A stretch of DNA of 64,000 bases from positions 4,009,556-4,073,555 of the forward strand of contig CAJINV010000005.1 in the NCBI GenBank assembly GCA_905178155.1. Direction: 5' to 3'. Below, piece by piece: positions 1-52,900 of the stretch (position 1 is the stretch's first letter; each line of letters begins with the position of its first letter). Under the pieces are notes generated by a model. It saw nothing but the letters and a program-made list of their open reading frames with translations. It was not told the DNA's origin and searched no databases. Source of the stretch: Amoebophrya sp. A120. Its lineage: Eukaryota > Protista > Dinoflagellata. Made by a program: the position numbers and the translations under genes.

Positions 1-720
1 AGCTGCCAACACTTTGAAAAGGTCGGGCGGAAAAGCGCTGAAAAAGCCCTCTCGATGCCGTCCCATCTGGAAGGATTTCCCTCGAAAAGGCGTTTCCAGC
101 AAGCTGGATTTCCATTGCCGCGGCGTCTCCAGCTGGATACTCTTCGAAGCGGCGCCCTCGAAGGGTTTCCAGCAGGAGGCGCGTTGCTTGCGGGTGCCTC
201 TTTGTTTAAGTAATGCACTGCCTCCCTGCTGGATTTCCTCCCGGCTAGAAAAAAACGCGCCTCCATCTGGGTTTCCCGCTAGGAATGCTCTGAAAAGGCG
301 TCCCCGGCTCCATTTCACGCTAGAAATACTCTGCAAAGACACGGCCGGCTGAATTTCTTCCAGCCGGGGGCGCTTTGGCGATGCCTCTCCCGCTGGATTT
401 CGTTCTGGGAACGCGCTGGCGATGCCTTTCCGCCTGGATCTCTAGCCGGAAACACGCTGCCGCTGCCTTTCCGGCTGTGTTTCCTTTCAGCTAGAAAGGC
501 GCTGAGACGGCATTGCTAGCTGGATTCCCTGCTGGACACACACCGGGGCGGCGTCGCTAGCTGGCTTTCTAGCTAGAAACGCCCTGAGACGGCGTCGCTA
601 CGTGGGTTTCCAGCTAGAAACGCACTGAGACGGCGTCGCTTGCTAGATTTCCAACCAGAAACGCACTGCGAAGGCGTCTCTAGCCGCGTTTCCGGCTCGA
701 CATGCTTTGAAAAGGCAACC
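1..720. repeat. Degenerate tandem repeat, ~41-bp unit (gaaacgc(a/c)ctgagacggcgtcgct...tttccagcta)
   Basis: Near-identical units at ~576-616, 617-657 and 658-700, with more decayed units back to the window start. No credible ORF. Confidence 0.7.
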
Positions 721-848
721 ACTAGGCCGCGGGGGGATGCGGCGCGAGGCGCAGCAGTGTTGTTCCCCGGTGATGCGCAAAGCGTGCGCGTCCCGCAGCG
801 GGGGGTGAACTTTGTGAAAAATGCTCCTTCTAGCGCAAGTTTGCGATG

Positions 849-33007: not shown

Positions 33008-35217
33008 TGTGCTAAGAACCGGTCCTATCGCTGCGTAACCGCTACAGGACTTCCAGGGTCGGGCGGAATAGCAGCAGCAAGGTCTTCCGAGGTTGACAGT
33101 GGCCCAAACTTGGATCTTGTAAAAAAATGCGATAGAAACAAGGATAACAATTACATTAAAAGTACATGCACTTCTGCACCGCCGCCTTACTGTATTTCTT
33201 TACGGGCGTGATCGATTGCGAAGCGAAAACACTGCCCAAGAGCAGTTTTACCACGCAACGCAAAGAACCATGGCCTAGAAATCAGATAAGACCCAAGCAG
33301 GACAAGACCTCCAACTCTCTACGCCCTTTGCAAGATCGTGGCATACGGACAAGTACGTCCAAGAACTCCGCTCGACTCTCAGAATGCAGATTTTATTCAG
33401 CAAGTACAGAAGAATCTGACATGCATAGTGAATTGGAAAATCGCTCACGTCCGTATCTGTAGAGCTGATGAAAAACAAAAAGCAATCGCTGTTCCTAGTG
33501 GCACTCAATCCTAGAAGAGCGTCTTCATACTTTTCTGCGCTCAGGGAATTCGAACATCAACTGTAGACGAGTAAAGATAATAGTAATACATATGGCTCTG
33601 TATCTGCGATCGTGGAGCTGCGTGGTATCTGTTATACATAGGTAAATTCCAACATGTTCGCGTAATCACCTTCACTTTGCAACTAAAAAATGGCGAGCGA
33701 GCACAGCTGCTGCCCCTGCTGAAGATGTCGATAATTGAAAAAATAATGCTGTATAAATCCAGTTACCAGTAGTAGCACTCTTCGTCTGGACGAGCCCGAG
33801 TCTCCTCCAAAGAAAAAAATCATCGAAGTAACATTTTTCTGCTGCAATTACTTCAGTCATGTATCCGCTAGACCGCAGCGTTTTTTAACAAACAACTCCA
33901 AGAACTCAGCATGAAAGAGATCAATGTTTCCCCCTTTATGTTCGGCTTTATTCCCTCTTTGCGGAACGCGGACGCCCGTGGCGCAGCCCCGAATACATAA
34001 GACGAAACACCTACTAGAGTGGTCGGCATAATTATATCCCTCTTTGCTTATGATCATACATAAGTAGTGGCTTGATGATTTCAGTATTTTTGCTGCTTCT
34101 AGGAGATCGCTTACTTTTTATTCCGTCCTGGAAGTAGAGCACCTTAATCCCTACCAGTCGGACCTTGAGTTGTTTGCTTTCGGGGCAATTTTTGTTTGCG
34201 CTTCAGTGGGAGTGTTGTGTTATTATGCTATAATTCGTGCGACTCGCCGCTGCCAATTAAATCGATGCCTTCACCTGCCACAACCCCATGACACCACCAC
34301 CTCCAGCAAACAAAGTTTAAGTTACTGTTTAGTAAAATATTTTCAGCTTTGGTGTGTGGAAGAGGCCATAGAGCCGAGCCGGAGCCTTTCTTCTTCAAAC
34401 GACGTCTACACGAGTCATCCAATTTCATGGACGAGCCTCTATTTATGGGGGATCCTGAAGATGCTTTACTCGTTGGCGGTTTTTCATCTACACATCTACA
34501 TGATCATGGAAGAGTCAAACCGTGCATAAGCAAGGAAAAGTTCTTACACTATACATGAGACTGCACAGCCATTCTTCGTAACTTACTTCTACGCGAGGCG
34601 CCCCAAGAAAATACAATGGGTAGCACAAGAAATCATGAAAGTGTTTGCAGATCCCCGCACTAGTACTAAGTGCGCGCTACGAACGTCCGTGCTGTAGTTC
34701 GTTACTCCACTTTTTTTCCTGGAAGAGAGCGAAATTTTCGACGAGAGTCTAGCTCCGGGGCTGATGTTGCCCATGCCATTACGAAAGGGAAAGGCAAAAA
34801 GTAAGAAAAACGTAAGCAATAGGCCGCGAAAAGTAGGAGCTTCTTTCAGTAAAAAAAACAAATAAAAAGAATCTTTGCGGCAAGTTTTTTGGTTTTTGCC
34901 CTCTTTCTTCAAAGTCTGCTAGGTGGAGTGACATCGTCCTTCTTTCGAGTCCACCCAGATGAAGTTTTCCTATGTATGAAAATACTTACATACTTTAGTC
35001 TGCTTCTTGTCTTTGTTTTACTGAGTTACATGATTTGATTTTTCGCCCGATCGCGGAGTGCTGGAAAATGAGCAAATCGAGCGATATCGCAATCGTCGGA
35101 CACAGCTGACCCAGATTCGGCACAATCGACGAGGCACCTGAAGAACGAAGTCAATACTGAGCCCAGCTTTAGTCCATCACGGTAAATTAATAGATTCGCG
35201 TCCGCCCGCGCGCGCTT

Positions 35218-38200
35218 TCAGATGGCTGACATGTGGAGGTAACTCCGCAAGAGGCGATCGGTGGGTGTGGTGGCCGAGTCGGACGTGATCTTCTTATCCG
35301 CCCGAAATTCTTTCATGGTGTTGGTGATACCCTTTGCTAGCACTTTTCCGAGCTCCACGCCGTACTGTAAAATATATTCAAGACAAGAAATTTATACAAC
35401 GTAAAGAACGCTGTATTGGAGGCACTGCGCCGGCCATAAAAAAATATCTTCTTTTTCATGTATACTAGAACCAAATCAAGGCGTAACTTCATCAGGTGGT
35501 GTTCGTTTTTTGGCGGAAGGAAAACTAGAATGAAAGGCGGTCGTTGCCTTTTTTTGCAATGATATACTAATCACATATCAGGTATGAGTAAAAACAAATA
35601 CCTGATCGAAGCTGTTGATCCCCCACAACCAGCCTTGCACCGCGGTCCGGTGTTCATACAAGGCCAGCAGAAGACCCACCGTGCGGGCGTCGCACTTGCC
35701 ATCGAAGAGCAGCATGAGGGAGGGACGGTCCCCGGGGAAGGTCTTGTGCGCGACGAGCTCGGGCTTCAGTTGCGGGTCGCCCTTTTGCACTTCTTCGGCC
35801 GATCGCCCCAGCGCGAGCGCGTTCGGTTGCGCGAAAAAGTTGGCCATCAGCTCGTCGTGGTTGGACAGTGCCCGGTCTTGGTGGTGCACGGCGTTTTGCG
35901 ACTCCGTGAAGCCGATGAATTCTGCGGGGATCACGCTGGTACCCTGGTGGAGCAGCTGGTAGAACGAGTGCTGGGCGTTGGTCCCCGGCTCGCCAAAGTA
36001 GGTAGCGCCCGTTTGCAAGTCCACGGGCTCGCTCTTCGGGACAACCGTTACCCTTTTACCGTTCGACTCCATGTCCAGCTGCTGAATGTGGGCGGTGCAT
36101 TATCGACGCGTGTCAACACACGACCAACTCCTCGTACGGGCGGGTGACAGCTGCACCCGCAAAAACATGATTGCAGATTGCATCTCATTTGATCATTGAA
36201 AACTTTTCGTTCAAGTCCTGCACTTACTGCAGATGAAACTGCAGTTTTCAATATGCACAAAATGAAGATTTTGCCGTTTGTGAGCGCGAATGTAGACCAC
36301 GATGTGGTTCTCGATATTACTAGAATTGACTCCCCCTGCTACGAACGTGGTCACCATGTACATTTAGTGTTCATCCGGACTTAAGTATTCGTATTTATTG
36401 AAGCAATAAATCATGGCACAGAAGAGACTTTCTGGATCGCTCGTACGGGAAAGGCAGTTGTGCGCGGCCGCGCGACACGGATGGCGTGTGATAAGAAGCG
36501 GTGCAGCGCCTGGCAGTACGGCAGAATTGCGCAGCTCTCAAGGTCCAAAAAACTCCGGTTCCAGAACTGGACTAGACCCATCAGTACCGGGAGGTTCTCC
36601 GGGAGTGGCGCGGAAAAAAAGTGCTCGTCCATTTCGTTCGCACCCGCCAGAAAGGCGTCCACAATGCTGGGGCCGAACTGCAAGGAGAGCGGGAGGAGCC
36701 CGACCGCGCTGCACACCGAGAACCGTCCCCCCACCCAGTCCCAGAAGTCGAAGGTCTTGGTGATCCCGAACTGCTTGGTCAGCACCTTGTATCGTACGAA
36801 AAAAGTGTTTCACTGTAACGATGTTGCAAGTTCTGCATCACAGAGAAAATTTGCCATGCGAGATTCCTAAGGGAAAACACAACTAAAAATCCATGGTCTT
36901 GTATGTGTAGCAAGACAAATACATGTGAGATACATTTTCTGCATGACAAGTTTACAGTGAAACAGTTTTTTCTTGCGATACCTTGTTCGTGGAGACCGCG
37001 ACCACGTGGGTGGAGACGATGTCGTCGCGCGACACGTTGTATGGATTGCAAAAGTGTCTGGGTCTGGAAGGTTGGAACTTGTAATGCTAGCTTTCCATAC
37101 ATAGAAAATCTGTATTGCATAACCAACAAAAGGCGCAGCCTCCTTTGTACAGGCAAAAACGCAATTTCTCATGCGGATTGCCTATGAGAAAGCGTTCTGG
37201 AAAGTTGTCATGCTTGGTTGCATTCGAAACTGTTTCCATCATCCACATTTTAGCATCACAAGTTTCCAGACCCAGACATATAATTTGCATTTGATACGTT
37301 GCCGGGCACCTTCTGGCGCAGTTTTTCGAGCAACCACGCGTTCACGACGGACTCCGCGTTCAAGATGGTCTCCGCGGTCGTGAAGGTTTTGCTGCAGATC
37401 ACCACCAGTGTGGTCTCCGGGTCGAGGCCCGCGGTGGCGCGCTTGATGTCGATGGGGTCCACGTTGGCGAGGAACTGCGTCCGGCGGTTGCGGCCGGCCG
37501 CGGCCGCGTCGGGCTCCGTTTTCAACGCTTCCAGGACAAATTCCACCCCCAGGTAGCTACCCCCAATCCCGATGGAAAGCACGTCGGTCAAGGGTTTGCC
37601 CGTGATCCCCACCCACCGCCCGCTGCGGACCTCCTCGCTGAACTCCCGCACCTCGTTGCGAACCCGCAGCACCTCGTCCCGGACCTCGGCGGCGTAGAAA
37701 TGTGCGGACGACGACTGCGGGTTCAGCCGCAGGGCGGAGTGCAGCACTTTGCGGTTCTCGGTCGGGTTCATCACTTCGCCAGAGACCATGCCCAGGATCT
37801 TCGTCTGCAGCTGACACTGTTCTGTCGCGTACTGCAGTAGTTTCTGCAGGATGGGCACGTCCACCTTCTGGCGCGTGAAGTCCGCGACGAGGCCCAAATT
37901 GCGGGGCGCGCCGCTGGAAGTGGGTTGGGCTGAGGCCCCAGCAGCTCCTCGCGCTCCTGTGCTTCGCTTTTTGCTGCTCGGGCTACTGCTGCTGGGGCTG
38001 TTTTTAACACTGTCAACCTCAACTGCGCTCTCTGGTGCCTGCGGTCCCTTATTTTGCGGAGAACGCTGGGTTATTATTTCTTTGGCTCCCAAAAAGTAAA
38101 AGTTGCTGCGGAACAGCACCTCATTTCGGTCAGAGTCTTCGAGCAGAGTGCGGAGGTGCTTCTTCTTGATGTTCGCTGCCAAGGCCCGAAGCTCACCAAG

Positions 38201-38266
38201 AATCTCGCTCCGGGAAGTACTCATTTTGATGTCCACTGGTGTTCCCTTCGTGGAAGCCACCGTCAT
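35218..38266 (-). CDS. GPI: Glucose-6-phosphate isomerase
   Basis: Motifs TENRKVLHSALR, IGIGGSYLG, ICSKTFTTAET, VAVSTN, FWDWVGGRFSV, HIQQLDMESNGK, GEPGTNAQHSFYQLLHQG, INSFDQ|YGVELGKVLA. Introns: introners at 37040, 36790 and 36101, plus GT-AG 35365-35601. Alternative start at 38224. Confidence 0.97.
36101..36493. mobile_element. Old, degenerate IR introner
   Basis: tatc...gata ends with a weak IR; flanks diverged (sense CTTCT/ATGCA); removing 398 nt restores ALHRF-x-AHIQQL. Confidence 0.7.
36790..36980. mobile_element. IR introner, family H
   Basis: TIR tatcg(t/c)a(c/a)gaaaaaa(g/c)tgtttcactgtaa; TSD ccttg; can be drawn as GT-AG. Confidence 0.92.
37040..37296. mobile_element. IR introner, family A
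   Basis: Family A TIR; TSD cgttg. Confidence 0.93.
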
Positions 38267-39541
38267 CACTACAGCGGGTCTACAAGGACCTTGACGTGTA
38301 GACCACACGAACTATGGATTCAGCCGCAGGGAGAGGAATGTAGGGGGGAATGACACGACTTCTAGGTATTGCAAGTGCAATAAACAACTTAGGGAAGTAT
38401 CACGAAAAAAAGTTGCAGGAACCAATGTGGAGTGGAGGTAGTCGAACAGCAACGTAGTTATTTTGATTGAGATTTCCGTGCTCACGCTCAGAGGACAGGA
38501 AATCACAAACTAGAAAATTGGAATTGATTCACAGTCAGGACGAATAAATAGATTATTATACACAGGGTGGCACTCAACCTTGATTTTTCCACGTCGAGAT
38601 GGATTAGCAATCGTCAAACGTACATCTACTAAACCGAAACAGTACTACTGATAAACTCGTACTCGTCCGTCGCTGTAACTTACTTCTTATCTATGCAGGT
38701 AGGGTAGTCCAGGAAGAACTAAATAGACAATATGCAGCTGGGCAAGAATACCGAAAACGTGCCTGTCCTCGAAGTAGCTTTTTCTTTTGTTCCTGTTGGT
38801 TATGGTTGCTTGTCTCGGTTGTTTCGGGAAGATAGTGGTGCCTTCACACTAGGACTACTCGATGAGTTCATTTATCGCTTTCGTCCAGTGCATTTTACGA
38901 AACCTCGGATCCCGACGGTACAACTTCACATCAATGCTATCGTATGCCACAAACCCCAACGAGATCTCCTTTTGGTATTGGATTTGGCTGCTATCTTCCT
39001 ACAACCCTAGCCGAGCGGTAACGGGACTTCTAGACTGACATTGGAGCCATTAGCATGCACATTTTCTCACCCTCGGAGACGCGATGCACAGGTAGAAATC
39101 ATCGCAAAAAGTTTCGATGAGAGTTTCTGCTTTTCATTTTTTGATCCAGTCGCATTCTTTGAATTTTCAGCGCGCGGGGGGGTCGACGAAGTTGTCATGA
39201 CCATCACATCTACTTGATGCCATCGACATGGTAACGGATCGGTATTACCGAACAGATGCGCGAACCTCGAGCGGCCGCGACTCCACATGGATGTGCTTGG
39301 CTCAACAGAAACAGCGTCTGACCGAAACAAAAGAAAAGAGGTACTTACAACATCAAGAGCAGCTACAGCTGAGTGATGCACCATCATCACGTAGTTCAAA
39401 TATTTCCTTCATCAGCGTCATGTGGAAACTAGCCGATACTGTTCAAAACGGCACGAGTCCATCATGTTCAAATAGCGAATAACGGTAAAATAAGTACATC
39501 ACAGGTCAGGAGATACACTGGAATCATGACTTCTTTCATCG

Positions 39542-42500
39542 TTACTTCATTTGGTGGCGAATGTTCATGGCCACGGAATTGCGAAGCTCTTCCGCCAGTT
39601 CCAGCGGTTTGGTAATTCGGGTTGCCCAGTCCTTCAGACGCGCAGTTTCGGAGAAGAAGCGAGCCAGTTATAATTTCCTCAGGTGTTACAATCTCAAACG
39701 TTACAATAGAATATGGAAATCTCAATCTGTGATGCAGGAAGTGCATGATCTAGTACCGTAGTCCCATAGGTTTGCGCATGACAACAAGTTTCGGAACCCA
39801 AAATCCCATTGATATCCGGCGAAATTTGTATTGCGAAAGGCGCAACTCTACGTACGTTCCTCATGCTCTTCATGCAAGACAAAATCCAGACTCTATTGTA
39901 ACGTTTGAGATTGTAACGTTTGCGCAGGACATACCAGTTCTTCCTCCGACTCCCCGATGTACCAGGAAAGCACCTCATCCTGTGCAAAAACGTCCCCACC
40001 CCAGAGTTGTCACGCAAATGCGCAATGACAGGAACATTTGTAATGCGCAGCTCCATGAGAGGCATTTCCAATCGTGTTAGTTTTGGAATTTGTAATGCGG
40101 TAAACAGGATGAGGAAATGGCTTTCTCATGCGGCTTCCTTTGCCAACCAGCACTACACTGCAGAGGGAAACTTGTCATGCACAGCTCCGAAACCTTGGAG
40201 ATTTGTGTTGCTAGATTGCCAACTACTTGACTATAGGGTGGGAACGTTTTTGCAAAGGATACACCTCCACGTTCGGCTTCTCTATTTTGAAGCAGGCCAG
40301 GAAGCGCAGTAGGGCCTCGCATCGAAAAAGGTTGTCGAAGCAGCTGCACAAATCGCCGAGCGGCCCCGTGCACTTTTTCCGCAACCGAAAAAATCGCGGG
40401 AACTGCTTGAGCCGGAAACTATCCACCAGGAGGAGAATGCCGGGATCGTCGTCTGTTGGGTGCAGCAGGTCAGCCTTGATGTGGTCCAGCCCCATGAAAG
40501 CATTGTATACCGCCCGCAAAATACGAAACTCTTTTGCCAAGTGCGGCGGAAGGACTTTTTTCTTGCAGCTCGTCGTGTCTTTACCTTTACTTTCTAGCGT
40601 GGTATCAGCATCTTGCTCTGAAGTAGCTGTAGCGCTGGTCATGGCCTTTAGCTGCATGGCGCACTGATGAAACTGTATGAAATGCAAAAGTGTCTGGGTC
40701 TGGAAGGTTGAAACTTGTGATGCTGTCTTTGGAAGGTTAAAAAAATCTGTATTGCATGGCCAGCAAAAGGAGTTCAGTTTGTGCTACGTGGAGTGGGCGT
40801 TTCTCATGCGGAATACGCATCAGAAGGCCCTTTCAAAATCTGTGACGCTAGGTCATGCATTACAGGCTTCATGGGTTATGCAAAATATGCATGACAAACC
40901 TGGCAATTTTCCAGACCCAGACATTTTTGCATTTGATAAACTGGCCCAAATCCCGGTAGTGCAGCGCCCAAATCGCGTTTGCCGAGTATATCAAATGTAA
41001 AAGTGTCTGGGTCTGGAAGATTCTGAGACTTGTCATGCATGTTTTGCATTGGCCATGATGTCTGTGATGCATGCCCTAGCGTCACAGATTTTTTGAGGGC
41101 TTCGCGATGCCTATTCCGCATGACAAATGCCCTCTCCGCGTAGCAACATTTCTTGCATTGCCTTTGCTGCTCATGCAATACAAATTTTTTTTGGAATGCA
41201 AATTCAGCATCACAAGTTGCATTCTTCCAGACCCAGACATTTTTACATTTCATAGAGTACACAGTCGCCGCAAATTCTGTGTTGCCCAGGTTCTGCACGA
41301 GCAAGTGAATTATCCACAGGTGGTGCAAATAATATCTACCGTCTCCACTGGGTCCGAAGGGGTTTGCATACTTAAAAATTGATCTTGGTTGTCACTAAAT
41401 GTTCTCACTCTGGCTTGGGCGAATTTTTATCTGAATACATCATGATACACCAACATGCCTCTCGTGTCTTCAAGGAGGAGCACACGATCACGAAGCTGCA
41501 GCCCGATGCGATAAATCAATAATGCTTTCATCTGGTTTCCTTGGCCCCAGTCGCCGAAGATACATAAGCATTTGCAGTTGATATCTTGCCGGATCGCACG
41601 CAGCTGATCGGAGACGTAATTCCAGGACTTTTCCTTCGCACCCGTTTCCAACCGCGCAAATGCCTCTTTCAAGACCGCGACTGGGCGCACATCGGTGGCC
41701 TTGGCTTCGCTTGTCAAACGCAAGTACGACTTCTCGAGGGCGAGCGATTTCCCAGTCACGGGCCCGACCGTCACCACCTCCTCGTCATCCGATTCGGGTT
41801 CCTCCGCGGAACTCGTAAGCTGCGCTTGCTGATTTCTATTCATCGGCGCACCCAGAAATGATGAAGATGTCGCTGCCGTTCCGCTTGAAGATGCAGCAGC
41901 AGTGGCTGCACTACTCATCAGCACTTGCGCATTTTTTGCATGCTTATCACCTCCGCCTTCAAAACGTCGCCTCCGGGCTTCCCGGGCGTCGTCTTTCTCC
42001 GTGAGCCCGGCCCAAGCTGTCTTCTGGTGTGACGCAAGCCGTTTTACCATTACCATCTCGTTCTTTTTTGGCTCCGCGGGAATTAGCGTCACCGGTGTTT
42101 TGGTACTACTATGATTGCTACTAGACGTCGCAGCACCTGCTCCAGTGCTCAACATAGTATTGTGGTACCCACCACCAGCTCCTCCACCGCGGCGATGCCT
42201 GTTGGACGAGGCCTCCGCTTTCGTCTTCAGCTGTATTTTCTTGGTCGCAAACCGCATCGTGAGTGGCCGCTGCCGGAGCAGCTCCTCCACCTGGAGACGA
42301 GTCAAAATTGAGGTGTCGATACCGTTCATGGTCAGCAGCCGGGCGTTGACGGCGATCCCGTACTCCTCGAGGTCCATCGGTTCGTAAATGGTGACGGGCT
42401 CGCGGTCCATGGTGGCGGGCTTTACGTCTCCCAACTCCCACTCGAACTCCAGCGTACTGTCGTGCGAGGGAAGCACGATGCTCTTGCGGCTAGTGTTGGC

Positions 42501-42569
42501 AATGTCAGCATAACCATCGAAAAATCGCCGCTTTTTCGTGATTTGGATGGGATTGCGGGAATTCGCCAT
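39542..42569 (-). CDS. SAC3/GANP-domain protein, LENG8/THP3-like
   Basis: VTGKSLALEKSYLRLTSEAKATDVRPVAVLKEAF...YVSDQLRAIRQD|LLVQ...VYS|ANAIWAL..DLGQF|HQCAMQL after removal of five introners. Confidence 0.88.
39669..39933. mobile_element. IR introner, family G-related
   Basis: IR core gttacaatctcaaacgttacaataga; TSD ccagt. Confidence 0.88.
39976..40261. mobile_element. IR introner, family C
   Basis: TIR (c/t)atcct(g/t)tgcaaaaacgt; TSD cacct; can be drawn as GT-AG after TSD base 2. Confidence 0.9.
40676..40938. mobile_element. IR introner, family A
   Basis: Family A TIR; TSD aactg. Confidence 0.93.
40989..41254. mobile_element. IR introner, family A (opposite orientation to 40676)
   Basis: Family A TIR; TSD gagta. 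Confidence 0.93.
41311..41583. mobile_element. Old, degenerate family A-like introner
   Basis: Ends tatcca...tttgcagttgata; flanks diverged (sense CAAGA/ATTCA); removing 278 nt restores RQD|LLVQ. Confidence 0.75.
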
Positions 42570-43545
42570 GTTGTTCAAGGTGGTCGTTCGTTCAATCGTA
42601 GTTTTGATCTCAGGTGGTAAACTTCGACTAGGGATCGTACTTCTAGGACAAAGCACGACTTTACATCGACATGATAATGAGCAGGATCGATGCTGACCCC
42701 GATCGTGTACTACTTCCTAAGCAAACCAATTTCGAAATGAAAAAAATAGAAACATTTTGCGGGAGAATGTCGCTGGTGCGTTGTTCAGATCTAGCAAAAG
42801 CATACTTCAAAGTAAGTAAGTAGCATGCGCATAGTTCTTTGATGTAGAAAATTGTGCTTGCGCGCCTAGTCTGCGAGCTTGATCAGGCAATCGATCCAGA
42901 ACTCCCACCTCCACACTTATTTTTGCTACGTATCCACGGGATCGAAAGGCAGCGTCTGTCGTGCCGGATGGCGATTATAAATAAGGGGATCCTGCTGCTG
43001 CTCACTGTGTTCATCATGTTTCGTCCTTCTGCTGAATGGCAAATGCTCGGAAAAAGTCACAGATTGAATCCCCAGCGAAAGCTTGGCTTTATTAGGAAGC
43101 TTGTTCTTTGAGGACTGGTTGTAAAAGCAGAAAAGTTTCTTCGCGTAGGTTTATAGATTTTGTATTCTCGAGCTGCGGTAGAGGTCGTATTCTATTCATC
43201 TCGAGTTGCGCTTCCTGTTCGTTAACGTAAGTGCATGATCCACCAATCCGCCTATTCGCATTCTGACTTGAAAACAAACTCTTACTTTATTTCTGCTTTT
43301 CGCCTAGTCATGATTGAGATTGACACAGTCATGGTTTTCGTTTTGTACTTTCGCAATCCCAGAAACGTAGCAGCGAAATAGGGGCGCTCATCATGAAAAA
43401 ACCTCGCGTCCTCGGACGAGGCATGATTCGACAAAGCACCTGCGCTACTTCGACAATGCCACTGCCTACCGTCGGCGCTTAGAACTTATGCAGGTGGTCA
43501 TCCAGAAATTCGTGATCCTAGCTGTTCTTCGATACTGCCATATGC

Positions 43546-45339
43546 TTAGTCCGTCGCCACCGCCACAACATCGGCTGAGCCACACAAGGATTCCAGCTCC
43601 CTACGCCAAAACTCGAGACGCTCCGCGTGCAGGTGCCGGAAGCAGTGCGGACCTGATGATTGCAGCGATTCCAGCAATAATACAGTCAGAGCTCCTCCAC
43701 CCTTGCCGAAGACGCGTAGCCAGAAGTCATTTTTCGATTTCACGTTGCTGAAACGGGCGCGTGCCAACTGCGCGACCAAATCGGTCGCTGCGGGCTGCCG
43801 ACTCGCCTGCAGGAAAAGGGTGCTGGCCAGGGAGTCGCTCTGCGTGCCCAGTCTGGGATCCTCCGGAAAGGCCACGTAAATCACTTTGCGGGCCTGCATC
43901 ACGGCGTTCCGGTTTGCAGCCAGCACGGCATGCTGTCGAATGTCCGGGATGCGCCGCTCCCGCTGCGAGCGGACGACCGAAATTTTCTCCGTCAGTGCGC
44001 GCAGAAAGGGCGGTAGAGATTCCGGGGAAGCCAACATAATCTCGTCGTAGCGACGCTGCCACTGCATTCCCAACGGCATATTCAGATGCTGCTCGTGTCG
44101 AACGCTCGTCCCTACGAGAGCGGCAGAAGAGGTGGAGCGTGAGGTCCGTTTATTAAGGGACGTAATTTTTCCATCTGTAGGAGAAGTCGCAACCGCAAGA
44201 CTTGTCGCGCTGCTTCGACTGGCGCATGAGGAGATTGCAGCAGTATCTTTAGTGTAGCCGGAGCAGCGCTGGTCCTGCTGTTCTCCATCTTGGGTCGTGC
44301 TTCCTTTTGCAGTTTGGGCGCTTGTTGTCCCGGCAACCGTCAATCTCCCGTCTGAAGATTTCGAAGCTAAGAAACAATGTGATGCAGCTTCTTGTTCTGC
44401 TCCCCTAAGACTAGGAGTCGCATGATCAAGATCTTCGGATTCCGTTGCCCCATGCATCATCAAACGGGAAAAATCATCGTCAGCGACAGCATCGTGAGCA
44501 GCAGCAGGACCGCCTAGTACAACTTCGTCCGACCGTAGGCTGCTGGAAAGGTACGGATGACGCGTGGTCTCTTTGCCTTCGTCTAAAAACACGTCGCTGT
44601 CCCCTACAGAAATCTTTCTGTTGTCGTCAGGTCTTTCACTTTCTTCTTCTTGAAGTCGGTCGGTTGCGCGTGCAGTATGTTGATCCCTATTCCATTCGTT
44701 TTCCCTGTCTATTGATACCACACTCGCCGCACACCTGTAGGTCATGGCCCACCTCTTTAAATCGTGCCAGTAGCGTGCGACGCACGTGCCTGGGCCGCGG
44801 ACGCTCGCATGCTGGCCTCCACTGGTGGGCGCGCCAGACAGGAACGACAGGCGTGGCGAATGCAACTGTGGGGGCCTGCCCACCAGCGCTATGCCGTGTC
44901 TCTGCTGCAGCATTCTCGACGAGAGCTGGGTCGACGACAAGCCGGCATCTACTTCCGTACGGACACCACAAGCTGCTGGAAGGTTGGATGTCGCGCCGCT
45001 ATCTTCTCGTCGATCTTCTGCTCCGCTGGAGGAACCTGCTTGTTCGAGTCTTTGCCAACCTGAGGTGGAGAACAAACATGATGACGGGAGCACGATAGGA
45101 TGCCGCATTCGCGTCTGCAATGTTGCACAGGTTGAGGTTTGCCTTCGCTCCACTCCATCTGCGACAGCCTGTGCAGATGCTACTGGATTCAAAGTGTGCT
45201 GGCTCTGCCGTGCTGTCCCAGAGCTGCCTGTTCCTCGCGATGCACGCGAAAACTTGGGCGCGTTAAGCAGAAAACCCGCACGAAAAAATGTTGCTGCACT
45301 CGATACAAATGCCGCGTGTCGCGATGTGAAGCAGAGCAT
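43546..45339 (-). CDS. Hypothetical protein with an R/S/F-rich, mitochondrial-presequence-like N-terminus
   Basis: 597-codon ORF starting at ATG; no family recognised. Confidence 0.6.
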   Translation of the reverse strand: MLCFTSRHAAFVSSAATFFRAGFLLNAPKFSRASRGTGSSGTARQSQHTLNPVASAQAVADGVERRQTSTCATLQTRMRHPIVLPSSCLFSTSGWQRLEQAGSSSGAEDRREDSGATSNLPAACGVRTEVDAGLSSTQLSSRMLQQRHGIALVGRPPQLHSPRLSFLSGAPTSGGQHASVRGPGTCVARYWHDLKRWAMTYRCAASVVSIDRENEWNRDQHTARATDRLQEEESERPDDNRKISVGDSDVFLDEGKETTRHPYLSSSLRSDEVVLGGPAAAHDAVADDDFSRLMMHGATESEDLDHATPSLRGAEQEAASHCFLASKSSDGRLTVAGTTSAQTAKGSTTQDGEQQDQRCSGYTKDTAAISSCASRSSATSLAVATSPTDGKITSLNKRTSRSTSSAALVGTSVRHEQHLNMPLGMQWQRRYDEIMLASPESLPPFLRALTEKISVVRSQRERRIPDIRQHAVLAANRNAVMQARKVIYVAFPEDPRLGTQSDSLASTLFLQASRQPAATDLVAQLARARFSNVKSKNDFWLRVFGKGGGALTVLLLESLQSSGPHCFRHLHAERLEFWRRELESLCGSADVVAVATD

Positions 45340-45535
45340 GCTCGTGCACGACGCCAGACTTCTTGCAGAAGTTGTTCAAGGAAGTGGCCGCGAATCCGGC
45401 AGACAACTCGTAAGTACGCGCAGACAGGGAAGGTAACAATCTGGCAGTGCAACTAGTACCGTCGCATTATATTCTACAACTTTTTACCCCATAGGAACGC
45501 TTGTAGCACGAGCTCCTCCACCTCCACCAGGCTCT

Positions 45536-46078
45536 TCAGTGCCGAATCAAACTGCCGACGCCGAGCACGCACCCCATGAAGGCACCGCCTGCGGTATTGA
45601 AGGGAAAAACCCCCCCTCCCCATATTGAAAAGGCATGTTTCCGAAAATCTGTCTTGCTGATTTGAGATCACAAATCGCATTTGTTTTGCAAGAAGGCAAC
45701 TCTACAGTCTCCGCCGCATTATTCGGACGGTTTGTGATGCTGCTTGGGCTACAGCATAGACATTTGTGATGCTAAGCGTCCACGCCAGAAGCTCTGTACA
45801 CAGGCGCGGCATATGCCTCCAATCCTCTACTGCAAGACAGCTTTGATTTGTGTACGGAAATCCGGCATCAGAAACTTCGTTTTGATATGGGGAGGGGGAA
45901 TTTTTTCCTCACAATATGCGGCGGCCTCCTGCCGCAGTCCGTGCAAGTGCCCACCGGCAATAACTCGACGCGTCACAGCCATCGTGGCGCCCAGAATCGC
46001 GCCTACAAACATGCCTTGCGCCATCTGCGCTGCCTTTTGCCGCCAGAAGAACGAGGTCTTACCGGAGACCTCCATCAT
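45536..46078 (-). CDS. ROMO1: Romo1/Mgr2-like small mitochondrial inner-membrane protein (~71 aa)
   Basis: Spliced product ...QMAQGMFVGAILGATMAV...EAAA|GGAFMGCVLGVGSLIRH* matches the Romo1 pattern (human GGTFGTFMAIGMGIRC). Confidence 0.72.
45595..45916. mobile_element. IR introner, family B
   Basis: TIR tattgaagggaaaaa..cccctccccatat; TSD tgcgg. Confidence 0.92.
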
Positions 46079-46955
46079 TGCGCATGCGAAAGAATTATCC
46101 TAAAGCGGAAGACTAAAGAAGTTCATCGAAAAAGGAAACATACACATAGGCCATTGTAATTTCGAATCAAAGCTAAACTGCGTCGAACACGCTCGAAGAA
46201 ATGAGGAATGCTCTTGACAGCGACAGGCAAGAAGGAAAATGCTCCACGACCACGGCTAATATCAGAGCGTAGTCATAAAAGGAAGTATCAATATCTGGGA
46301 AAAGAACGCGCCGAATTTAAACATTTACAAACAAACGGCATCAATGCAAATCATAAAAATTTGCGAATGCGAACGCATGTGCAAAAACTGAAATCCAACG
46401 TGAAGCGAGAAAGCAAAAAGATCTTAACTTTACGCTCAGAAGTACTATTCTCATGATACCGCGCTTTGCAGCTCACCATCACGAATCTGTCAGATCATAA
46501 GTTTCTCATGATATCTACAAGTAATTGTTTATTCATTCGGAATGAGATCGCAGGGTGTACTGACCTTAAATTTCATATTAATTTATTTCGCAACACGTAC
46601 TACTTGTATAGCTCAACAAGCGATCTTCATGAGAAAAACAGCGTGGATCTTCGTTCCTCTTGCTCAAGCTTCTGGACAACCAGTACCTCATGCCAAAACG
46701 GTCATGATCAGAAACACAACAGAGTTGCTACTTTCCCCGGATGTTGACCGAGCACATCCCGTTTTTGCTTTTTGGTGTTGAAGTTTAAATAACCGGCACT
46801 TTGTGTTTACGACTGTAACTGGAGGTACTTAGTGTTGATGGTGTTAGTTTTTGTGCACCATGCCAGCGAAGCGAGTGAAGACGGTCCCCTCGCTGGAAGA
46901 GGTGGTGCTCCAAGAAAACAATTTGCTACGTGAGTAGCCATTTGTCCTGTCTGTG

Positions 46956-49900
46956 CTAGCCATCCGCGCCCGTCTTTCCTGCTCGGCTTTCTTTGCGATT
47001 TGTTGCTTCTTCGTGGGCTCGGATGATTTTGTTCTGCTCGTGTGTGGGCATGGCGACACGCTTATGCCCGGGAAAATCGTTGTACCTACAGTTCTCCCAT
47101 CGTGGAGACCCTGACCGTATGCATAGTTCGAGGATCTTCAGACTGAGGTGAATACAAGACGAGGGAGCACAAATTCATCCGATTCTCGCAAAAACTATGT
47201 TCCACCTACGTGCTGAGAATGGATAAATCATTGCGCCAAAACGCTAACAATAACGCTTTTTTTGGGCATTACCATAATATTGCTGAATCTATAGAAAGAC
47301 CACAGTCTTTGTCTTTACTTTATGTCTTTTCACTGAACAAGCAGCTGATGAGCGCCAAGCTTGATGGCGGTGCGTTCGGTAGTACAACGGGTTTTTCCAC
47401 TGCCGTAGTATTCACGGAAGTCCATGGAAAATTCCCCGACGCCTTGGGTGAGACTGCGCAGCTCCTTCGCATACCCAAACATCTGGCGCAGGGGCACGAT
47501 GGCCTCGATCAAGATGGAGTCAGTGCCCACGGCGACTGTATTCTGTACGGATCCTTCACGGTTGTATCCAGGAAAAAAACACCATCACAATCATACGTAG
47601 GAGGTTTTGCATCAGAAATTTTTTCGCATGACTGTATTGCAAAAACACATCAAAGGGAGATCGCCTATAACTCTTGACATGACTGTGATGCATTTTCGCG
47701 CATGACAAAAATTTTTGTATTGCAAAAATGTGCAAAAGTGATTGCGATGGTGTTTTTTTCTTGAATAGGTTGCTCATCGACTGCACTACTGCTGCTTGCG
47801 TCTCTGTCGGCGCCGAAACCTTGTTTTTTAACGTTTAAATAGACAAACGGACGTCGTCGATATTTCAGGAAAGCTCCATCAGAGCTTGCTTTTAGCAGGT
47901 GCAGACAGGACCAAAAAGTCAGTACTTAAAAATGGCTGCAACTTCTACGCGCAGGCCTGCCGGTGATCAGCACTGCGGGACGTAGCGGTAACTTGATCTA
48001 CAAGATCATGCAGATTCATTTCTGCCACGTAGTGATAGGTCCAGTTGGTAGGCCTCAGGATCGAAGAAATCAACGAAGATGCGCAAGCACAAGCAGCAGC
48101 TACTCCTACTTGAAGAAAAAAATAAAAAAGGCCGCTTGAAAGTATGTAAGTAAGAACCTCGACATTCATGAGCGGTTCGAGAATCTGGGGTGAGGCCTTT
48201 TCCAGGCCGGCTTCTACCGCACCCTTCGCCGCAAGCTGGAACGCAATGTCCGAGGAGTCGTTTTCGTGCGCCTTTCCGTCCGTTACGACAAACCGGAGGT
48301 TGATCAGAGGGTTCCCTGAGAGAAAACCCTGGGAAACAGCATCGCGAAATCCTTTTTCGATGCTCGAATGGTACTGCTTAGGCCTGTATGCACGCTGAGC
48401 GTTGTATCTTCTACTTTATCGTAAAATTCATGAAATTATCCGGCGGCTCTTCCTGATACATTTGCTTTTTGCAATCGTACATGCAAAAAATGGCACTATC
48501 TGTTCGTGGCTTCGATGTCTTTTAGGAGTACGACTAGGATTGCGATTTGCGAATTAATTCTTCCCATAGAAATGATTTGCAGGAGCAACATGTTGCGGGT
48601 CGCATGAAGATACTTGAAAGATTTTTGCGCAGCGTAGTACGTCGTTGCCGGAAAGTTGATTGACAAATTCCACATAGTTGACCGTGTTGCCATTCTCGTC
48701 TACAGTTTTCTCTGGGAGCTCGTTTTCTGGAATCGGCTCGACAAAGCCGGCGATCTTTCCGTATTGCCCGCGGCCCCCGGTCTGCCGTTTGTGCGTGAAC
48801 TCGAAGTTGGCTTTCTGCCCGATATGGGTGTGTCAGGTTTGAAGTCGTCAAAGTTGAAATAGTTTGCCATGCATAAAACAGATACCAGTCGGAAGCCCAC
48901 TTATCAAGCGGCGCATGACAAATTTCCCGAGCACCGGAATCCAATTTGTCATGCTATTTGGGCACAGAAGACTGCTTTTGTCGTGCTCTTTTGGCGGCTC
49001 TATTTCAAACCCTAAATAGGCTCACAATCTGCCTCACTTGCCACCCCGGCAAGACAGGCACTCCATGCCTTGCATTTTATGCATGGCAAATCATTTCAAC
49101 TTTGACGATTTCAATCCTGACGCTTCCATACCCGATGCACTCCTTGTAGCTGACCATGGGCGACCCGGTTTCGACATCAAAAGTAAAAGTGTCTGGCGGG
49201 TCTGGAAGAGTGCATGTTTGTCATGCTTGTCTGGCATGACTCTCAAATCTGTCATGCACGTTACCCAAGAGCGCCATTTTTGTTTTTCTGTCATGCAGAA
49301 ACGCAGTTTGTCATGCAGAATAGGCAACACCTAGAAGTTCAGAAACTTGTCATGCTGAGCCAGCACTTGTGGCCTGCTCATGATACGCCACCCAGCATCA
49401 CAAGTTTCCAGACCCAGACACTTTTGCATTTGATATTCGATCTGCACGCACTTGAATTCTCGCTTCATGCGCTCCAGGTAAATCTCCAGATGCAGCTCGC
49501 CCATTCCGCGCATGATGTGCTCCTTGGTCTCCGGGTCCATGTCCAGGTGGAAGGTTATTACAGTTAAAAACGCCCCCACCCCAGAACTCGGGAGCATTTG
49601 TATTGCAAACCTTTCCAAATCCAATGGAAACACTCCGCGTCTTGCATGTATCAGCATCACAGATTTTCAATTGCGAATAGCGAAAATCTGTATTGCTAAA
49701 GATCCCAGCAACGGCGACGCTTGTCATGCAAGCGATGCTGTATACGACTAGACTCTGCATCAGAAAGATTCAAAATCCTTTCATGCAAGACAAAAGCTTT
49801 ACATTTGGAAACTTCGCATCGCAAATTATTGCAACTTGAACTTTCGGGGTGGGGGCATTTTTCACTGTAATAAAAGTTGGGTCCTGTTCATGTTGAAAAC

Positions 49901-52900
49901 CGCCCTCACGTACTACCCAGGGAGAAACCCAGATAATGATAAAGGAAAAATGATGTATCTAGCACGTATCAGCCGCCTTCCTGATTTAGATTCCTTCGGA
50001 ACAAAGAAAACGAGTCTGCGTTCTCTTTTGCAATGCACAAAGAGTTAAGTCGATTTGTGAAATTTGAATTTCGCAATGCAATAGACACTTCTCCTGGGAC
50101 CACGAGGGCTTTGGCACTTCTACACGACAGTGTGATAGTCTTCCCGCTTGAATCGCTGCACCGCCTTGAAGAATTTTGCGGTGTCATCGTGGTTCATGGA
50201 CTTGACCCCCAGACTCATCACCGGTTCGGGGACATGCATTTTGGCACAGAGCAGCTGGGTTTTCGCGGTGTCCGTGAAGGTGGTCCCGGAGCTGCAGTCC
50301 AAACCGGGCACCGCCACGATGTCCCCCGGCAGGGCGGAGTCCACCTCCCGGTACTCCAAGGAGTGCATGCGAACCAGCTTCTTGACCTGCTTTGTCTTCT
50401 TCGCGTGGTGGTCGTACACGGACATCGCCTATGCATTGCAAATATGTCTGGGTCTGGGAGATTGCGAGATTTGTCATGCTAGTCTGGCATGACTCTAAAT
50501 TGTGTATTGCGTGCCAACGAAGAGGCCCCCTTGTCTGTCATGCAAAAACGCAGTTTCTCATGCGGAGTACGCAACTCTGAACCACGGAAAAACTTGTCAT
50601 GCTGGGGAGCGCATTACAGCGTGCTTAATGCCCCAGACATATTTGCAATGCATATCCCCTTCTTCAGCTTTCCCTGGTACACCCGCACGTAGGTCAAAAC
50701 ACCGGCGGTGGGGTGGTCCTGGATCTTGAACCCGTAGCACACCAGCGGGTGCTATCAAATGTAAAAGTGTCTGGGTGGTCTGGAAGGTTGGAACTTGTGA
50801 TGCTAACTTTGGACTCTAAAAAAATCTGCAACGCATGATCAGCAAGAGGAGTCTAGTTTGTGCTACGCGGGGAGGGCGTTTGTCATGCGGAGTAGGCATC
50901 AGGAAGCCCTCTAAAAATCTGTGATGCTAGGTCGTGCATTACAGACATCCTGCTCCTGGGTCATGCAAAACATGCATAACAAGTCTCAGAATCTTCCAGA
51001 CCCAGACATTTTTGCATTTGATAGGTGCTTCTCCGGCTCCGTGGTGTGCAACCGCACGGTCGGTGTCAAATTGGCCGCGGAGGAGGTGGCAGCTCCGGCG
51101 CTGCTGGAAGTAGAACTAGAAGACGAAGAAAAAGCGATGGGTATCCTGCGTGCAAATGGGGCCCGCACCCGCAATCATCCATTTTTCGAGCAAAGATGGG
51201 ACAAGGAGCACCACTGCGCATTGACAATTCAACAACTTCAAGAGAAATTGACGCTGCAGTTTCGAAGCCATAAGTACTTGTTCGAAGTCAGCGGGGCAGC
51301 TGCATCACTAGGTGGTGGCCCCTTTGTATTTAACCTTCACCTTGTGGTCTCCTATGGGAAAGGAGCTGGTCAGATGAATCATGCACACTTACTAATTCTA
51401 GGCATGTTCGCAGGAGCACAAGTGTCAACATTCAACTCACGAACGGCAGGGCCCTTTTTTACTATTTTACAGGGGCTACTGGCTTTGTTCTCCCGATCCA
51501 AGGGACTTGGGAGGTAGAGTGCCACACCGTCGAGCAATTCCTGGACGCCGCGGTTCTTGTACGCGGAGCCCATAAACAACGGGCAGAACTGCCGGCTCAG
51601 GGTATACTCTCGGATTTTTTCCTGCAGTTCCCCTGCAGAGAAGGCGTCCGCGCCCTCCTCCAGGTACTTTAAGGCCACGTCGTCGTCGAGGTCTGCGAGC
51701 GTTTCCACTAATTCGGTCCGCACTTCTTGCGCCCTCTTCTTGAGTTCCGCGTCCGCACTTTGTATATGAGAGTGCACCGCTTTCTATTCTCTACTCCCGA
51801 CCACGTCTAAGCTTAGTTAATACTAAACTTATGATATGATCATGCAAGTATGGTACACTTCATCCAGCTGCTGTATTTTTCTTGCACCAGTTTTCTGGAC
51901 AAGTACCGGTTGCAGAGACAGAGAGAATCCAAAGTAGATCAACATAGCACTCTCGTCGGTGTCAGTTTGTCACACGCTCATCTTCTCCTCGTCCAAATGA
52001 ACAAGGGGAGAGCGCAGAGGACGAGCTGTGCACGGTGATACAGTTCGAGGTCCTGGTAGACGACCTTCTGTCCCTGGTCTCCTTCGAAAAGCACGATGCG
52101 GTTTTCGATGACGTCCACCACCCCGGCAAACTTGTCCTCCTCCCCGTAGGGAAGCTGGACGGCGGCGGTGGTGAGCCCCAGCTTGGCGCGGATCTGCCGC
52201 TGCACGAAGAAGGGGTCTGCGCCGAACCGGTCCATCTTGTTGATGAAAATCAGCCGCGGCACCTCGTAACGCGCCATCTGCCGGTGGACGGTCAGCGTCT
52301 GCGCCTGCACGCCCCCCACCGCGCAGCAAATCATCACGGCCCCGTCCAGTACCCGCAGCGCCCGCTCCACCTCAATGGTGAAGTCGACGTGGCCGGGCGT
52401 GTCGATGATGTTAAACTCGTGGTCGTTTTTCCAGCTGCAAAACGTGGCGGCCGAGCAGATGGTGATCCCCTTCTCCCGCTCGAGCGCCATGTGGTCCATT
52501 TTCGCCCCAACGCCCGTCTTATCAAATGTAAAAATATCTGGGTCTGGAAGATTGCCAGATTTGTCATGCAGTTTTTTCATGATCCAGGAAGCCTGGAATG
52601 CAGGACCTAGCATGACAGATTCTGATTCTGTGCGATCTCTCTAATGCCTACTTATCCTGCATGAGAAACTGCCTCTCGATTAGGTCAAAAATGTACAACT
52701 TTTGGCAAGCATGCAACACAGTTTTTTGCCTGCTTCGGATTTAGCGTGACAAGTTGCATGCTTCCAGACCCAGACATTTTTGCATTTGATACGTCTTCCC
52801 GCGGACATCGTGGATCTCCTTGATCTTCCCCGTGTAGTAGAGAATGCGCTCCGTAAGCGTGGTCTTTCCGCTATCAATGTGTATCAAGTGTAAAAGTGTC

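What the first reader, a model, noticed from the sequence alone, without database searches (positions are those of the whole stretch)
36096..52045. TSD decay points to a fixed splice register after TSD base 4, giving an invariant nTA donor
Seen: in old copies the upstream (sense) TSD still fits the protein while the downstream copy has drifted: CTTCT/ATGCA (RF, 36101), CAAGA/ATTCA (QD, 41311), AATAC/AGCGT (EY, 47063), CGTAC/CAGGC (DV, 48387) and AACTG/TACAA (51765). Base 5 of the upstream copy is G in 14 of 32 elements, which creates GTA. Three of these (1987, 51142, 51765) have a different base 5 in the downstream copy. The donor-side TA is never lost, while the acceptor-side TA has become TG three times (11950, 39976, 49175). 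Inference: the intron is TSD base 5 + element + TSD bases 1-4. The 5' site keeps +2T/+3A, the 3' site is set by distance (4 nt) from the hairpin base rather than by AG, and donors drift toward GT.
Basis: partly seen in the sequence, partly recalled or inferred. Interest (0 to 1): 0.78.

Follow-up and report, generated by a model that had tools for sequence, protein, structure and literature searches.

The report
Fixed cut rule for transposon introns
In a marine parasite whose transposon-derived introns lack the usual GT-AG ends and were reported to have variable borders, every junction that could be read here fits one fixed cut, which likely means thousands of such introns share a single hidden splicing rule.

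Summary
The elements are the known Amoebophrya A120 introners (Farhat 2021): TAT-ended hairpin transposons with 5-bp target duplications (TSD). The fixed register holds. 12 of 34 window elements have unequal TSD copies. 10 could be tested (9 on spliced contigs from one RNA sample, 1 on a deposited protein). In 252 oriented copies from another assembly, donor +2T is never lost while its acceptor partner is lost 10 times, and AG is not enriched. Not supported: G enrichment at base 5 (80/252, 32% vs 30% background) and drift to GT (5 gains, 3 losses). +3A is near-invariant, not invariant. The hairpin-base ruler is doubtful: in old copies the inner stem has shifted 1-7 nt, yet the cut stays 4 nt past the terminal ATA. 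Sliding junctions inside the TSD to the best GT-AG match reproduces the published 'variable' motif spectrum, so that variability is likely an alignment artefact. I found no paper stating this register. The scan noted similar signal-free introns in two other dinoflagellate windows, without a register.

The parts
36097..36494 (-). Intron at register 4 in GPI (element 36101-36493; TSD CTTCT/ATGCA)
   Evidence: Joint 36096>36495, ambiguity 1, X1 and X2; registers 3-4
41307..41584 (-). Intron at register 4 (element 41311-41583; TSD CAAGA/ATTCA)
   Evidence: X1 piece starts at 41584 with no mismatch; record gap 98 = model 98; registers 4-5; left side not printed
47059..47408 (-). Intron in EF-G, exact register 4, ends CT..CG (element 47063-47407; TSD AATAC/AGCGT)
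   Evidence: Joint 47058>47409, ambiguity 0, X1 and X2
48383..48637 (-). Intron at register 4 in EF-G (element 48387-48636; TSD CGTAC/CAGGC)
   Evidence: Joint 48381>48637, ambiguity 1; registers 4-5; register 1 (GT..AC) is not used
49552..49873 (-). Intron at register 4 in EF-G (element 49556-49872; TSD ACTTT/ACCTT)
   Evidence: Piece 49436-49556 has 1 other letter in X2 and X3, fitting upstream base 3 kept; place not printed
49874..49881 (-). 8-nt microexon between two element introns
   Evidence: Letters GG between the joint sides; spliced length 2202 = record 2202
49882..50138 (-). Decayed element intron lacking the acceptor TA (49886-50137; TSD AAGAC/AGGAC); could also read GA..AG at register 2
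   Evidence: Piece 50138-50423 has 0 other letters; one unspliced contig 49873-50167 in X3, depth 5.3
50426..50655 (-). Intron at register 4 in EF-G (element 50430-50654; TSD GGGGA/GGCGA)
   Evidence: Joint 50423>50654, ambiguity 3; registers 3-6
51138..51479 (-). Intron at register 4 in EF-G (element 51142-51478; TSD GCCAG/CCCAT)
   Evidence: Joint 51137>51480, ambiguity 3, X2 and X3; register 5 excluded
51761..52041 (-). Intron in EF-G, exact register 4, ends GT..CA (element 51765-52040; TSD AACTG/TACAA)
   Evidence: Joint 51760>52042, ambiguity 0, X2 and X3
1983..2272 (-). Intron at register 4 in an SMP/C2-domain gene (element 1987-2271; TSD TAAAG/TAAAC)
   Evidence: Deposited protein P0001 matches registers up to 4, not 5 or 6
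36790..36980 (-). Element with identical TSD copies (register unreadable)
   Evidence: Removed with 37040-37296: record gap 55 = model 55
37040..37296 (-). Element with identical TSD copies
   Evidence: As above
39669..39933 (-). Element with identical TSD copies
   Evidence: Sequence; removal gives an open frame in silico; joint not printed
39976..40261 (-). Element with acceptor TG, identical TSD copies
   Evidence: X1 piece starts at 40262
40676..40938 (-). Element with identical TSD copies
   Evidence: Record gap 98 = model 98
40989..41254 (-). Element with identical TSD copies, inverted relative to its 91% relative at 52882; both are removed
   Evidence: Inverted repeat I3; record lengths
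45595..45916 (-). Element with identical TSD copies
   Evidence: Joint 45589>45917, ambiguity 5; strand weakly called
47565..47767 (-). Element with identical TSD copies
   Evidence: Joint 47559>47768
48823..49130 (-). Element with identical TSD copies
   Evidence: Joint 48817>49131
49175..49435 (-). Element with acceptor TG, spliced
   Evidence: Joint 49169>49436
50753..51023 (-). Element with identical TSD copies
   Evidence: Joint 50747>51024
52520..52791 (-). Element with identical TSD copies
   Evidence: Spliced length 2202 = record 2202
52882..53143 (-). Element with identical TSD copies
   Evidence: Spliced length 2202 = record 2202
35365..35601 (-). Canonical GT-AG intron in GPI, skipped by the same contig that skips the elements
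   Evidence: X2 record 5
47820..48157 (-). Canonical GT-AG intron in EF-G
   Evidence: Joint 47816>48155, cut +3
34500..38312 (-). Glucose-6-phosphate isomerase transcript, extent covered by the contig within the laid stretch
   Evidence: PF00342; 666-residue open frame after splicing
46908..53900 (-). Elongation factor G-like gene with 13 element introns and 1 canonical intron (approximate extent)
   Evidence: PF00009; 950-residue open frame after splicing; the EF-G name beyond the GTPase domain is from recalled motifs

Best explanation
These are the known hairpin-transposon introns of Amoebophrya A120, and every readable junction fits removal of upstream TSD base 5, the element and downstream TSD bases 1-4, likely by a spliceosome that reads U at +2 and likely measures the 3' cut 4 nt past the element's terminal AU(A) instead of looking for AG. 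Shown: one TSD copy's worth is removed exactly; the register; GT and AG are not needed; +2T is never lost; elements sit in genes in both orientations. Inferred: because both element ends are the same inverted repeat starting TAT, any insertion in either orientation gives nUAU at the donor and AUA-N4 at the acceptor and restores the original coding sequence. Inferred: the hairpin brings the ends together, but the short terminal motifs fix the cut. Inferred: +2U is kept because U6 A51 pairs with it in the catalytic core (yeast structure), while the G(+1):G(-1) and AG checks are relaxed. The A at -7 may be the branch point; that is untested.
For: Joints and pieces in spliced contigs, registers computed, P0001, chance 9.5e-5. 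Full open frames and matching lengths after splicing. In 252 oriented outside copies: +2T lost 0, -5A lost 10; AG 22 against 26.9 expected; family orientation 45 same, 41 flipped, 36 unclear of 122. In six old copies 19 of 30 TSD positions differ, yet acceptor ATA is intact at 18 of 18 positions and donor TA at 12 of 12, while donor +4T is kept in only 3 of 6. Inner stems are shifted 1-7 nt without moving the cut. At 36101, 47063, 48387 and 51765 another register gave a better GT..AG match at insertion and was not used. U6 A51 pairs with U(+2), and Slu7 is dispensable below nine nucleotides from branch to 3' site (10.1101/212811 passages). Most spliceosomal proteins and U2, U4, U5, U6 were found in A120, U1 was not (PMC7789003 section 10).
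Against: Only 10 junctions, 2 exact; nine come from one RNA sample (labelled RNA by guess) kept as contigs, which drop minor forms. Elements with identical TSDs (22 of 34 here, 206 of 252 outside) cannot be read from mRNA. The codon-model test on outside copies is weak: register 4 best by only 2.4 ln units; upstream base better in 25 of 43 at bases 1-4 (p=0.36); base 1 favoured the downstream copy 8 of 11. 31 of 50 mismatches fall on codon position 3 against 52% expected (p=0.10), a faint hint that both copies are constrained. Six of the 10 changes at -5 are A>G, which keeps a U.G pair; non-wobble losses alone are 0 against 4 (p=0.125). -7A is lost 3 times in 252 and is not better kept than +4T (pooled 3 against 8, p=0.23). 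49886 is spliced without ATA. The old copies were partly picked by their TA ends. Nothing here shows that the spliceosome does the cutting.
Confidence: 0.55

Rival explanations
1. One reading: the closing base pairs of the RNA hairpin set both cuts, 1 nt before and 4 nt after the stem.
For: Young copies fold with the in-register stem at high probability. Arm-to-arm duplexes beat shuffles (fraction 0.05 or less) in 6 of 7 decayed copies. Six of 10 changes at -5 keep a U.G pair. Euglena introns use fixed spacers from a paired motif (PMC12501133).
Against: In-register closing pairs have probability 0.2 or less in all 7 decayed copies, including both exact junctions. Inner stems are shifted. Four outside copies break the closing pair. 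No excess of G.U over A.C in arms: 79 against 71 in conserved columns (p=0.57), 177 against 206 overall (p=0.15). Folding predictions ignore proteins, so a short terminal helix held by protein is not excluded.
Confidence: 0.2
2. The register is fixed, but a non-spliceosomal structure-guided nuclease and ligase removes the element, as proposed for euglenid nonconventional introns.
For: No G(+1) or AG requirement; +1 and -1 bases are at most weakly associated (chi-square p=0.051); U1 not found; the Euglena machinery is described as unknown.
Against: The one invariant base is +2U, the base that U6 holds. A near-complete spliceosome is present. Tunicates handle non-canonical introns with a modified spliceosome (PMC13326754 abstract).
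Confidence: 0.13
3. The cut floats within the TSD in most elements, perhaps to the best local GT-AG match; only the subset that happened to settle at register 4 accumulates TSD mismatches.
For: Published annotated ends match a best-match slide (simulated gt .33, gc .08, ga .08, at .16, ag .29, ac .15; published .27.05.05.18.29.18), which could be biology rather than aligner. Codon-position-3 excess. Farhat Fig. 3 legend calls the sites variable.
Against: Four old copies ignored a better GT..AG register available at insertion. No readable junction excludes 4. Identical TSDs leave any aligner free to slide over 6 or more positions. Outside mismatches are spread over all five positions (11, 10, 11, 15, 7).
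Confidence: 0.1
4. The joined forms are DNA alleles without the insertions, not spliced RNA.
For: The runs' RNA label is a guess, and no DNA run was laid as control.
Against: One contig skips a canonical GT-AG intron and three elements (X2 record 5). One 2422-nt contig skips eight consecutive elements in EF-G with a single other letter in the printed pieces.
Confidence: 0.02

Closest known systems
Amoebophrya sp. A120 introner elements / non-canonical introns (Farhat et al. 2021, PMC7789003)
   Same: Same organism by the source name of the 100% identical protein P0001; inverted repeats starting TAT, seven looser bases, then AAA; 3-5 nt direct repeats; about 240-260 nt.
   Different: The paper reports no clear splicing signature, variable sites and unknown borders. 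[quoted passage not shown]
Polarella glacialis introner class 12 (Roy et al., 10.1101/2020.10.14.339549)
   Same: 5-nt TSD; in its NNAGG mode the donor is TSD base 5 plus the element's first base and the acceptor is TSD bases 3-4, the same register.
   Different: Class 12 needs G at base 5 and AG in the TSD and uses more than one frame. Here neither is needed, and one register fits all.
Euglena nonconventional introns, code N3CDG...CH'GN5-6|R (PMC12501133)
   Same: Short complementary motifs at fixed spacers from both junctions, longer spacer on the 3' side, no GT-AG.
   Different: Spacers 1 and 4 nt against 3 and 5-6; motif TA(T) against CDG; spacers here are the TSD; no exon-start purine rule is evident.
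Fritillaria borealis non-canonical introns (PMC13326754; PMC11282704)
   Same: Transposon-derived introns with inverted repeats and TSDs in a genome mostly outside GT-AG, handled by a modified spliceosome.
   Different: Ends are mostly AG-AC or AG-AT, U1 is retained and U2AF is duplicated; here the donor keeps +2U and the acceptor dinucleotide is free.
Micromonas and Aureococcus introners (as reviewed in PMC11282704, PMC9860276)
   Same: MITE-like elements whose splicing removes one TSD length and restores the mRNA.
   Different: They carry or co-opt canonical splice sites.

Membership tests
Amoebophrya A120 introner elements (Farhat 2021) | Terminal inverted repeats of 8-20 nt or more | tested here: met
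   decayed in 7 window copies
Amoebophrya A120 introner elements (Farhat 2021) | Repeat starts TAT, seven looser bases, then three or more A | tested here: met
   536 termini: T at position 3 in 98%, A at 11-14 in 85-93% (TA itself was required in that pass)
Amoebophrya A120 introner elements (Farhat 2021) | 3-5 nt direct repeats at the junctions | tested here: met
   Exact 5-nt repeat in 287 of 393 copies called without using it; other lengths 9% or less
Amoebophrya A120 introner elements (Farhat 2021) | Repeated across the genome and spliced out | tested here: met
Amoebophrya A120 introner elements (Farhat 2021) | Variable splice position relative to the hairpin (as published) | tested here: not met
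   10 of 10 readable junctions allow register 4 and no other single register
U2-type spliceosomal intron | GT (or GC/GA) donor and AG acceptor | tested here: not met
   Exact junctions CT..CG and GT..CA; 7 of 252 GT-AG at register 4
U2-type spliceosomal intron | U at donor +2 | tested here: met
   252 of 252 outside, after one mis-registered call was dropped, and 34 of 34 in the window
U2-type spliceosomal intron | Branch adenosine and lariat, dependence on U2/U5/U6 | not testable with these tools
   No raw reads cover the locus; conservation of A(-7) is inconclusive
Polarella class 12 introner geometry | G at TSD base 5 and AG in the TSD | tested here: not met
   G 80 of 252; AG 22 of 252
Euglenid nonconventional intron | N3CDG...CH'GN5-6|R signature | tested here: not met
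   Ends are n-TAT and ATA-N4
MITE / TIR DNA transposon | Cognate transposase | not tested
   No genome held; Farhat found none in A120

The most novel reading that the evidence does not exclude
All of A120's roughly 30,000 introner introns obey one code, nU(A)...AU(A)-N4, read by a U1-less spliceosome that has dropped the G(+1) and AG checks and branches at the element's own terminal A. Any insertion of these transposons into an exon, in either orientation and at any target, is then born as a clean intron. The published splice-site diversity is an aligner artefact, and the TT-nn donors of strain A25 (repeats starting TTA) are the same code.
Probability: 0.35. Interest if true: 0.85.

Novelty: new variant of a known kind. 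Interest (0 to 1): 0.62.

Why it matters
Farhat et al. counted 29,850 repeated introns in A120, left their borders unknown and described splice motifs of unprecedented variability; a 2024 review repeats this. A fixed register turns that into one rule, allows the genome's junctions to be re-annotated, and names the bases to mutate. It makes directly testable how introns without G(+1) and AG are removed in a cell where U1 was not found. It also explains why these transposons could flood exons: the rule needs nothing from the target site. Reading the register from decayed TSD pairs should transfer to other dinoflagellates with signal-free introns.

Tried and rejected
No whole genome was held, so the genome-wide test used 149 loci (535 kb) of assembly JACKZZ01, found by one element-end pattern; its relation to A120 is shown only by shared families at 76-92%, and no RNA was available for it. 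Raw-read runs X9 and X10 laid 7 and 2 repeat-only reads and gave nothing; no listed holder is on record as RNA. The first brute-force inverted-repeat scan was too noisy. G enrichment and drift to GT: rejected. Farhat Table S4, where all nine top A120 motifs begin nT, looked like support, but a best-match slide gives the same list, so I do not count it. G.U-versus-A.C test for selection on the RNA stem: null. Invariant branch A at -7: suggested by the window (0 of 34 lost) but not separated from +4T outside. Codon-model register test: weak. De novo search for decayed introns by spacer length: flat, 76-112 candidates for every spacer 0-8, uninformative. Homolog search to read two junctions in L037: no hit. 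Rfam scan of the window: no match. Elements 9853 (difference at a synonymous position) and 31178 were not tested.


Full report
Setting. The window is eukaryotic, with the tested genes on the minus strand. An exon at 1763-1981 is 100% identical to P0001, named by its source as Amoebophrya sp. A120. The repeats are short elements with terminal inverted repeats and 5-bp target duplications (TSD) inside exons of GPI, an EF-G-like gene and others. Their end consensus, TAT, seven looser bases, then AAA, is the one Farhat et al. give for A120 introners (PMC7789003 section 11). The elements are therefore known; the question is the splice rule.

Observation. I curated 34 elements (two left ends corrected between those calls; 58236 set aside because it lacks the repeat end). 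12 of 34 have unequal TSD copies.

Register. Contigs of runs X1-X3 (one sample, RNA by guess) skip both canonical introns and elements, with 0-1 other letters in the printed pieces. Each skip equals element plus 5 nt. Allowed registers: 47063 only 4; 51765 only 4; 36101 3-4; 48387 4-5; 51142 1-4; 50430 3-6; 41311 4-5; 49556 3 or more; 49886 2-5. The last three are indirect. P0001 has N at the 1987 junction, excluding 5 and 6; that annotation was built from transcript alignments (PMC7789003 section 25). Four is the only value in all ten sets; chance under independent uniform registers is 9.5e-5. Splicing every element at register 4 gives open frames of 950, 666 and 598 residues and a length of 2202 equal to the contig record. 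9853 and 31178 were not tested. One search printed 15 of 37 joints.

Larger sample. A pattern scan gave 149 loci of one assembly, JACKZZ01. I called elements from arm positions 4-27 only, without using TA or the TSD: 393 copies, 21 of them in the window. A codon model oriented them; 55 of 55 neighbour pairs agreed and all 18 confident window calls were minus. Of 372 outside copies, 276 were oriented and 253 had at least 3 of 5 TSD matches. The 23 dropped look mostly mis-paired but may hold real old copies. I also dropped L002 4903, the only one whose donor lacked +2T, because its TAT starts 3 nt earlier. In the 252 left: +2T lost 0, -5A lost 10 (6 G, 3 C, 1 T; p=0.002); +3A lost 2, -6T lost 2; +4T lost 4, -7A lost 3. 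The scan pattern fixed TAT at one end of the anchor copies, on either side alike. G at base 5 is 80 of 252 against 0.301 background, equal to C at base 1 (80), and does not rise with age. Base-5 changes are 2 to G, 3 from G and 2 neither; pooled with the window, 5 against 3. AG at the acceptor is 22 against 26.9 expected. One family lies 45 times in one orientation and 41 in the other, 36 unclear.

What sets the 3' cut. The distance of 4 nt is real. In the seven decayed window copies the in-register closing pairs are predicted at 0.2 or less, and inner stems are displaced by 1-7 nt in six, yet the cuts fit register 4. In six of them 19 of 30 TSD positions differ, while ATA at -7..-5 is intact (18 of 18) and donor TA is intact (12 of 12); 49886 lacks ATA and also appears unspliced in X3. 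Arms still pair better than shuffles in 6 of 7, and arms show no G.U excess. I therefore favour the terminal motif as ruler and the stem as a tether; this is inference. Best-match GT-AG choice is disfavoured: four old copies had a better register at insertion and did not use it, and 41311 lost an AG it started with. U6 A51 pairs with U(+2) in the yeast post-catalytic spliceosome, which would explain the one invariant base; spliceosome use is not shown.

Results against. The codon-model test is weak and base 1 leaned the other way. Mismatches favour codon position 3, 31 of 50, p=0.10. Most copies are unreadable from mRNA. The RNA evidence is one sample of contigs, with no DNA run laid as control.

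Literature. Farhat et al. state no clear signature and unknown borders. Their Table S4 lists only nT donors as predominant in A120 and TT in A25. The seven largest of the 19 A120 families shown (58 exist; PMC12130899 Dataset S2) pool to gt .27, gc .05, ga .05, at .18, ag .29, ac .18 (n=1994). Sliding my 252 junctions to the best partial GT-AG match gives .33.08.08.16.29.15, whereas true register 4 gives .32, 0, 0.29.09.07. So the published variety is likely alignment ambiguity; that aligners slide this way is my recall. Polarella class 12 has the same geometry but needs G and AG. Euglena has a fixed-spacer code with other motifs. Searches found no paper stating this register. The library lacks most subscription journals.

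What I saw of each paper. PMC7789003: abstract, passages, sections 10, 11, 16, 25, 32, supplement legends and part 3 of 5; no figures, and Figs 3, 4 and S19-S23 may bear on priority. PMC12130899: passages and 21 of 58 A120 rows; supplements 13-14 not searched. PMC11282704, PMC9860276, PMC12005148, PMC11453091, 10.1101/212811 and 10.1101/2020.10.14.339549: passages. PMC12501133: abstract and section 8. PMC13326754: abstract and section 30.

Verdict. Known elements with an apparently unstated splice rule. Fixed register 4 as the major form: about 0.85. Invariant +2U and no AG need: well supported. Drift to GT: about 0.1. Full mechanism: 0.55. Interest 0.62.

Noticed in passing
window 19114-21407: An element with identical TSD copies (TGGTC) carries an internal GC-rich tandem array of 92-96 bp units (about 19500-20950), making it 2.3 kb. 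Splicing not tested.
   Followed up: no
window 49874-50138: An 8-nt microexon sits between two element introns. The 49886 element lacks the acceptor TA, could read GA..AG at register 2, and one X3 contig retains it.
   Followed up: partly
window 58236-58570: 5-bp direct repeat with a donor-side TA but no acceptor TA; it reads GT..AG at register 1. It may be a converted old element or chance.
   Followed up: no
window 1-975: P0001 leaves the window sequence near 975 at what looks like another TAT-starting element; the next exon was not found in the window, and 1-850 looks repetitive.
   Followed up: no
window 39500-42700, minus strand: A third spliced gene (598-residue open frame, five elements) whose C-terminal part recalls a SAC3/GANP domain; the name is from memory, not from a call.
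   Followed up: no
window 3900-7320, minus strand: Exons that recall a family A DNA polymerase, with three elements; name from memory.
   Followed up: no
JACKZZ01 loci L001-L149: At register 4 the intron phases are 113:57:68 (0:1:2) in 238 copies, a phase-0 excess although no splice bases are recruited from the exon; codon-model frame calls may contribute.
   Followed up: no
L018 3401-3667 and L030 5233-5477: Copies with donor +3 changed (TGT, TTT) and intact TSDs inside strong coding context: natural tests of whether +3A is needed.
   Followed up: no
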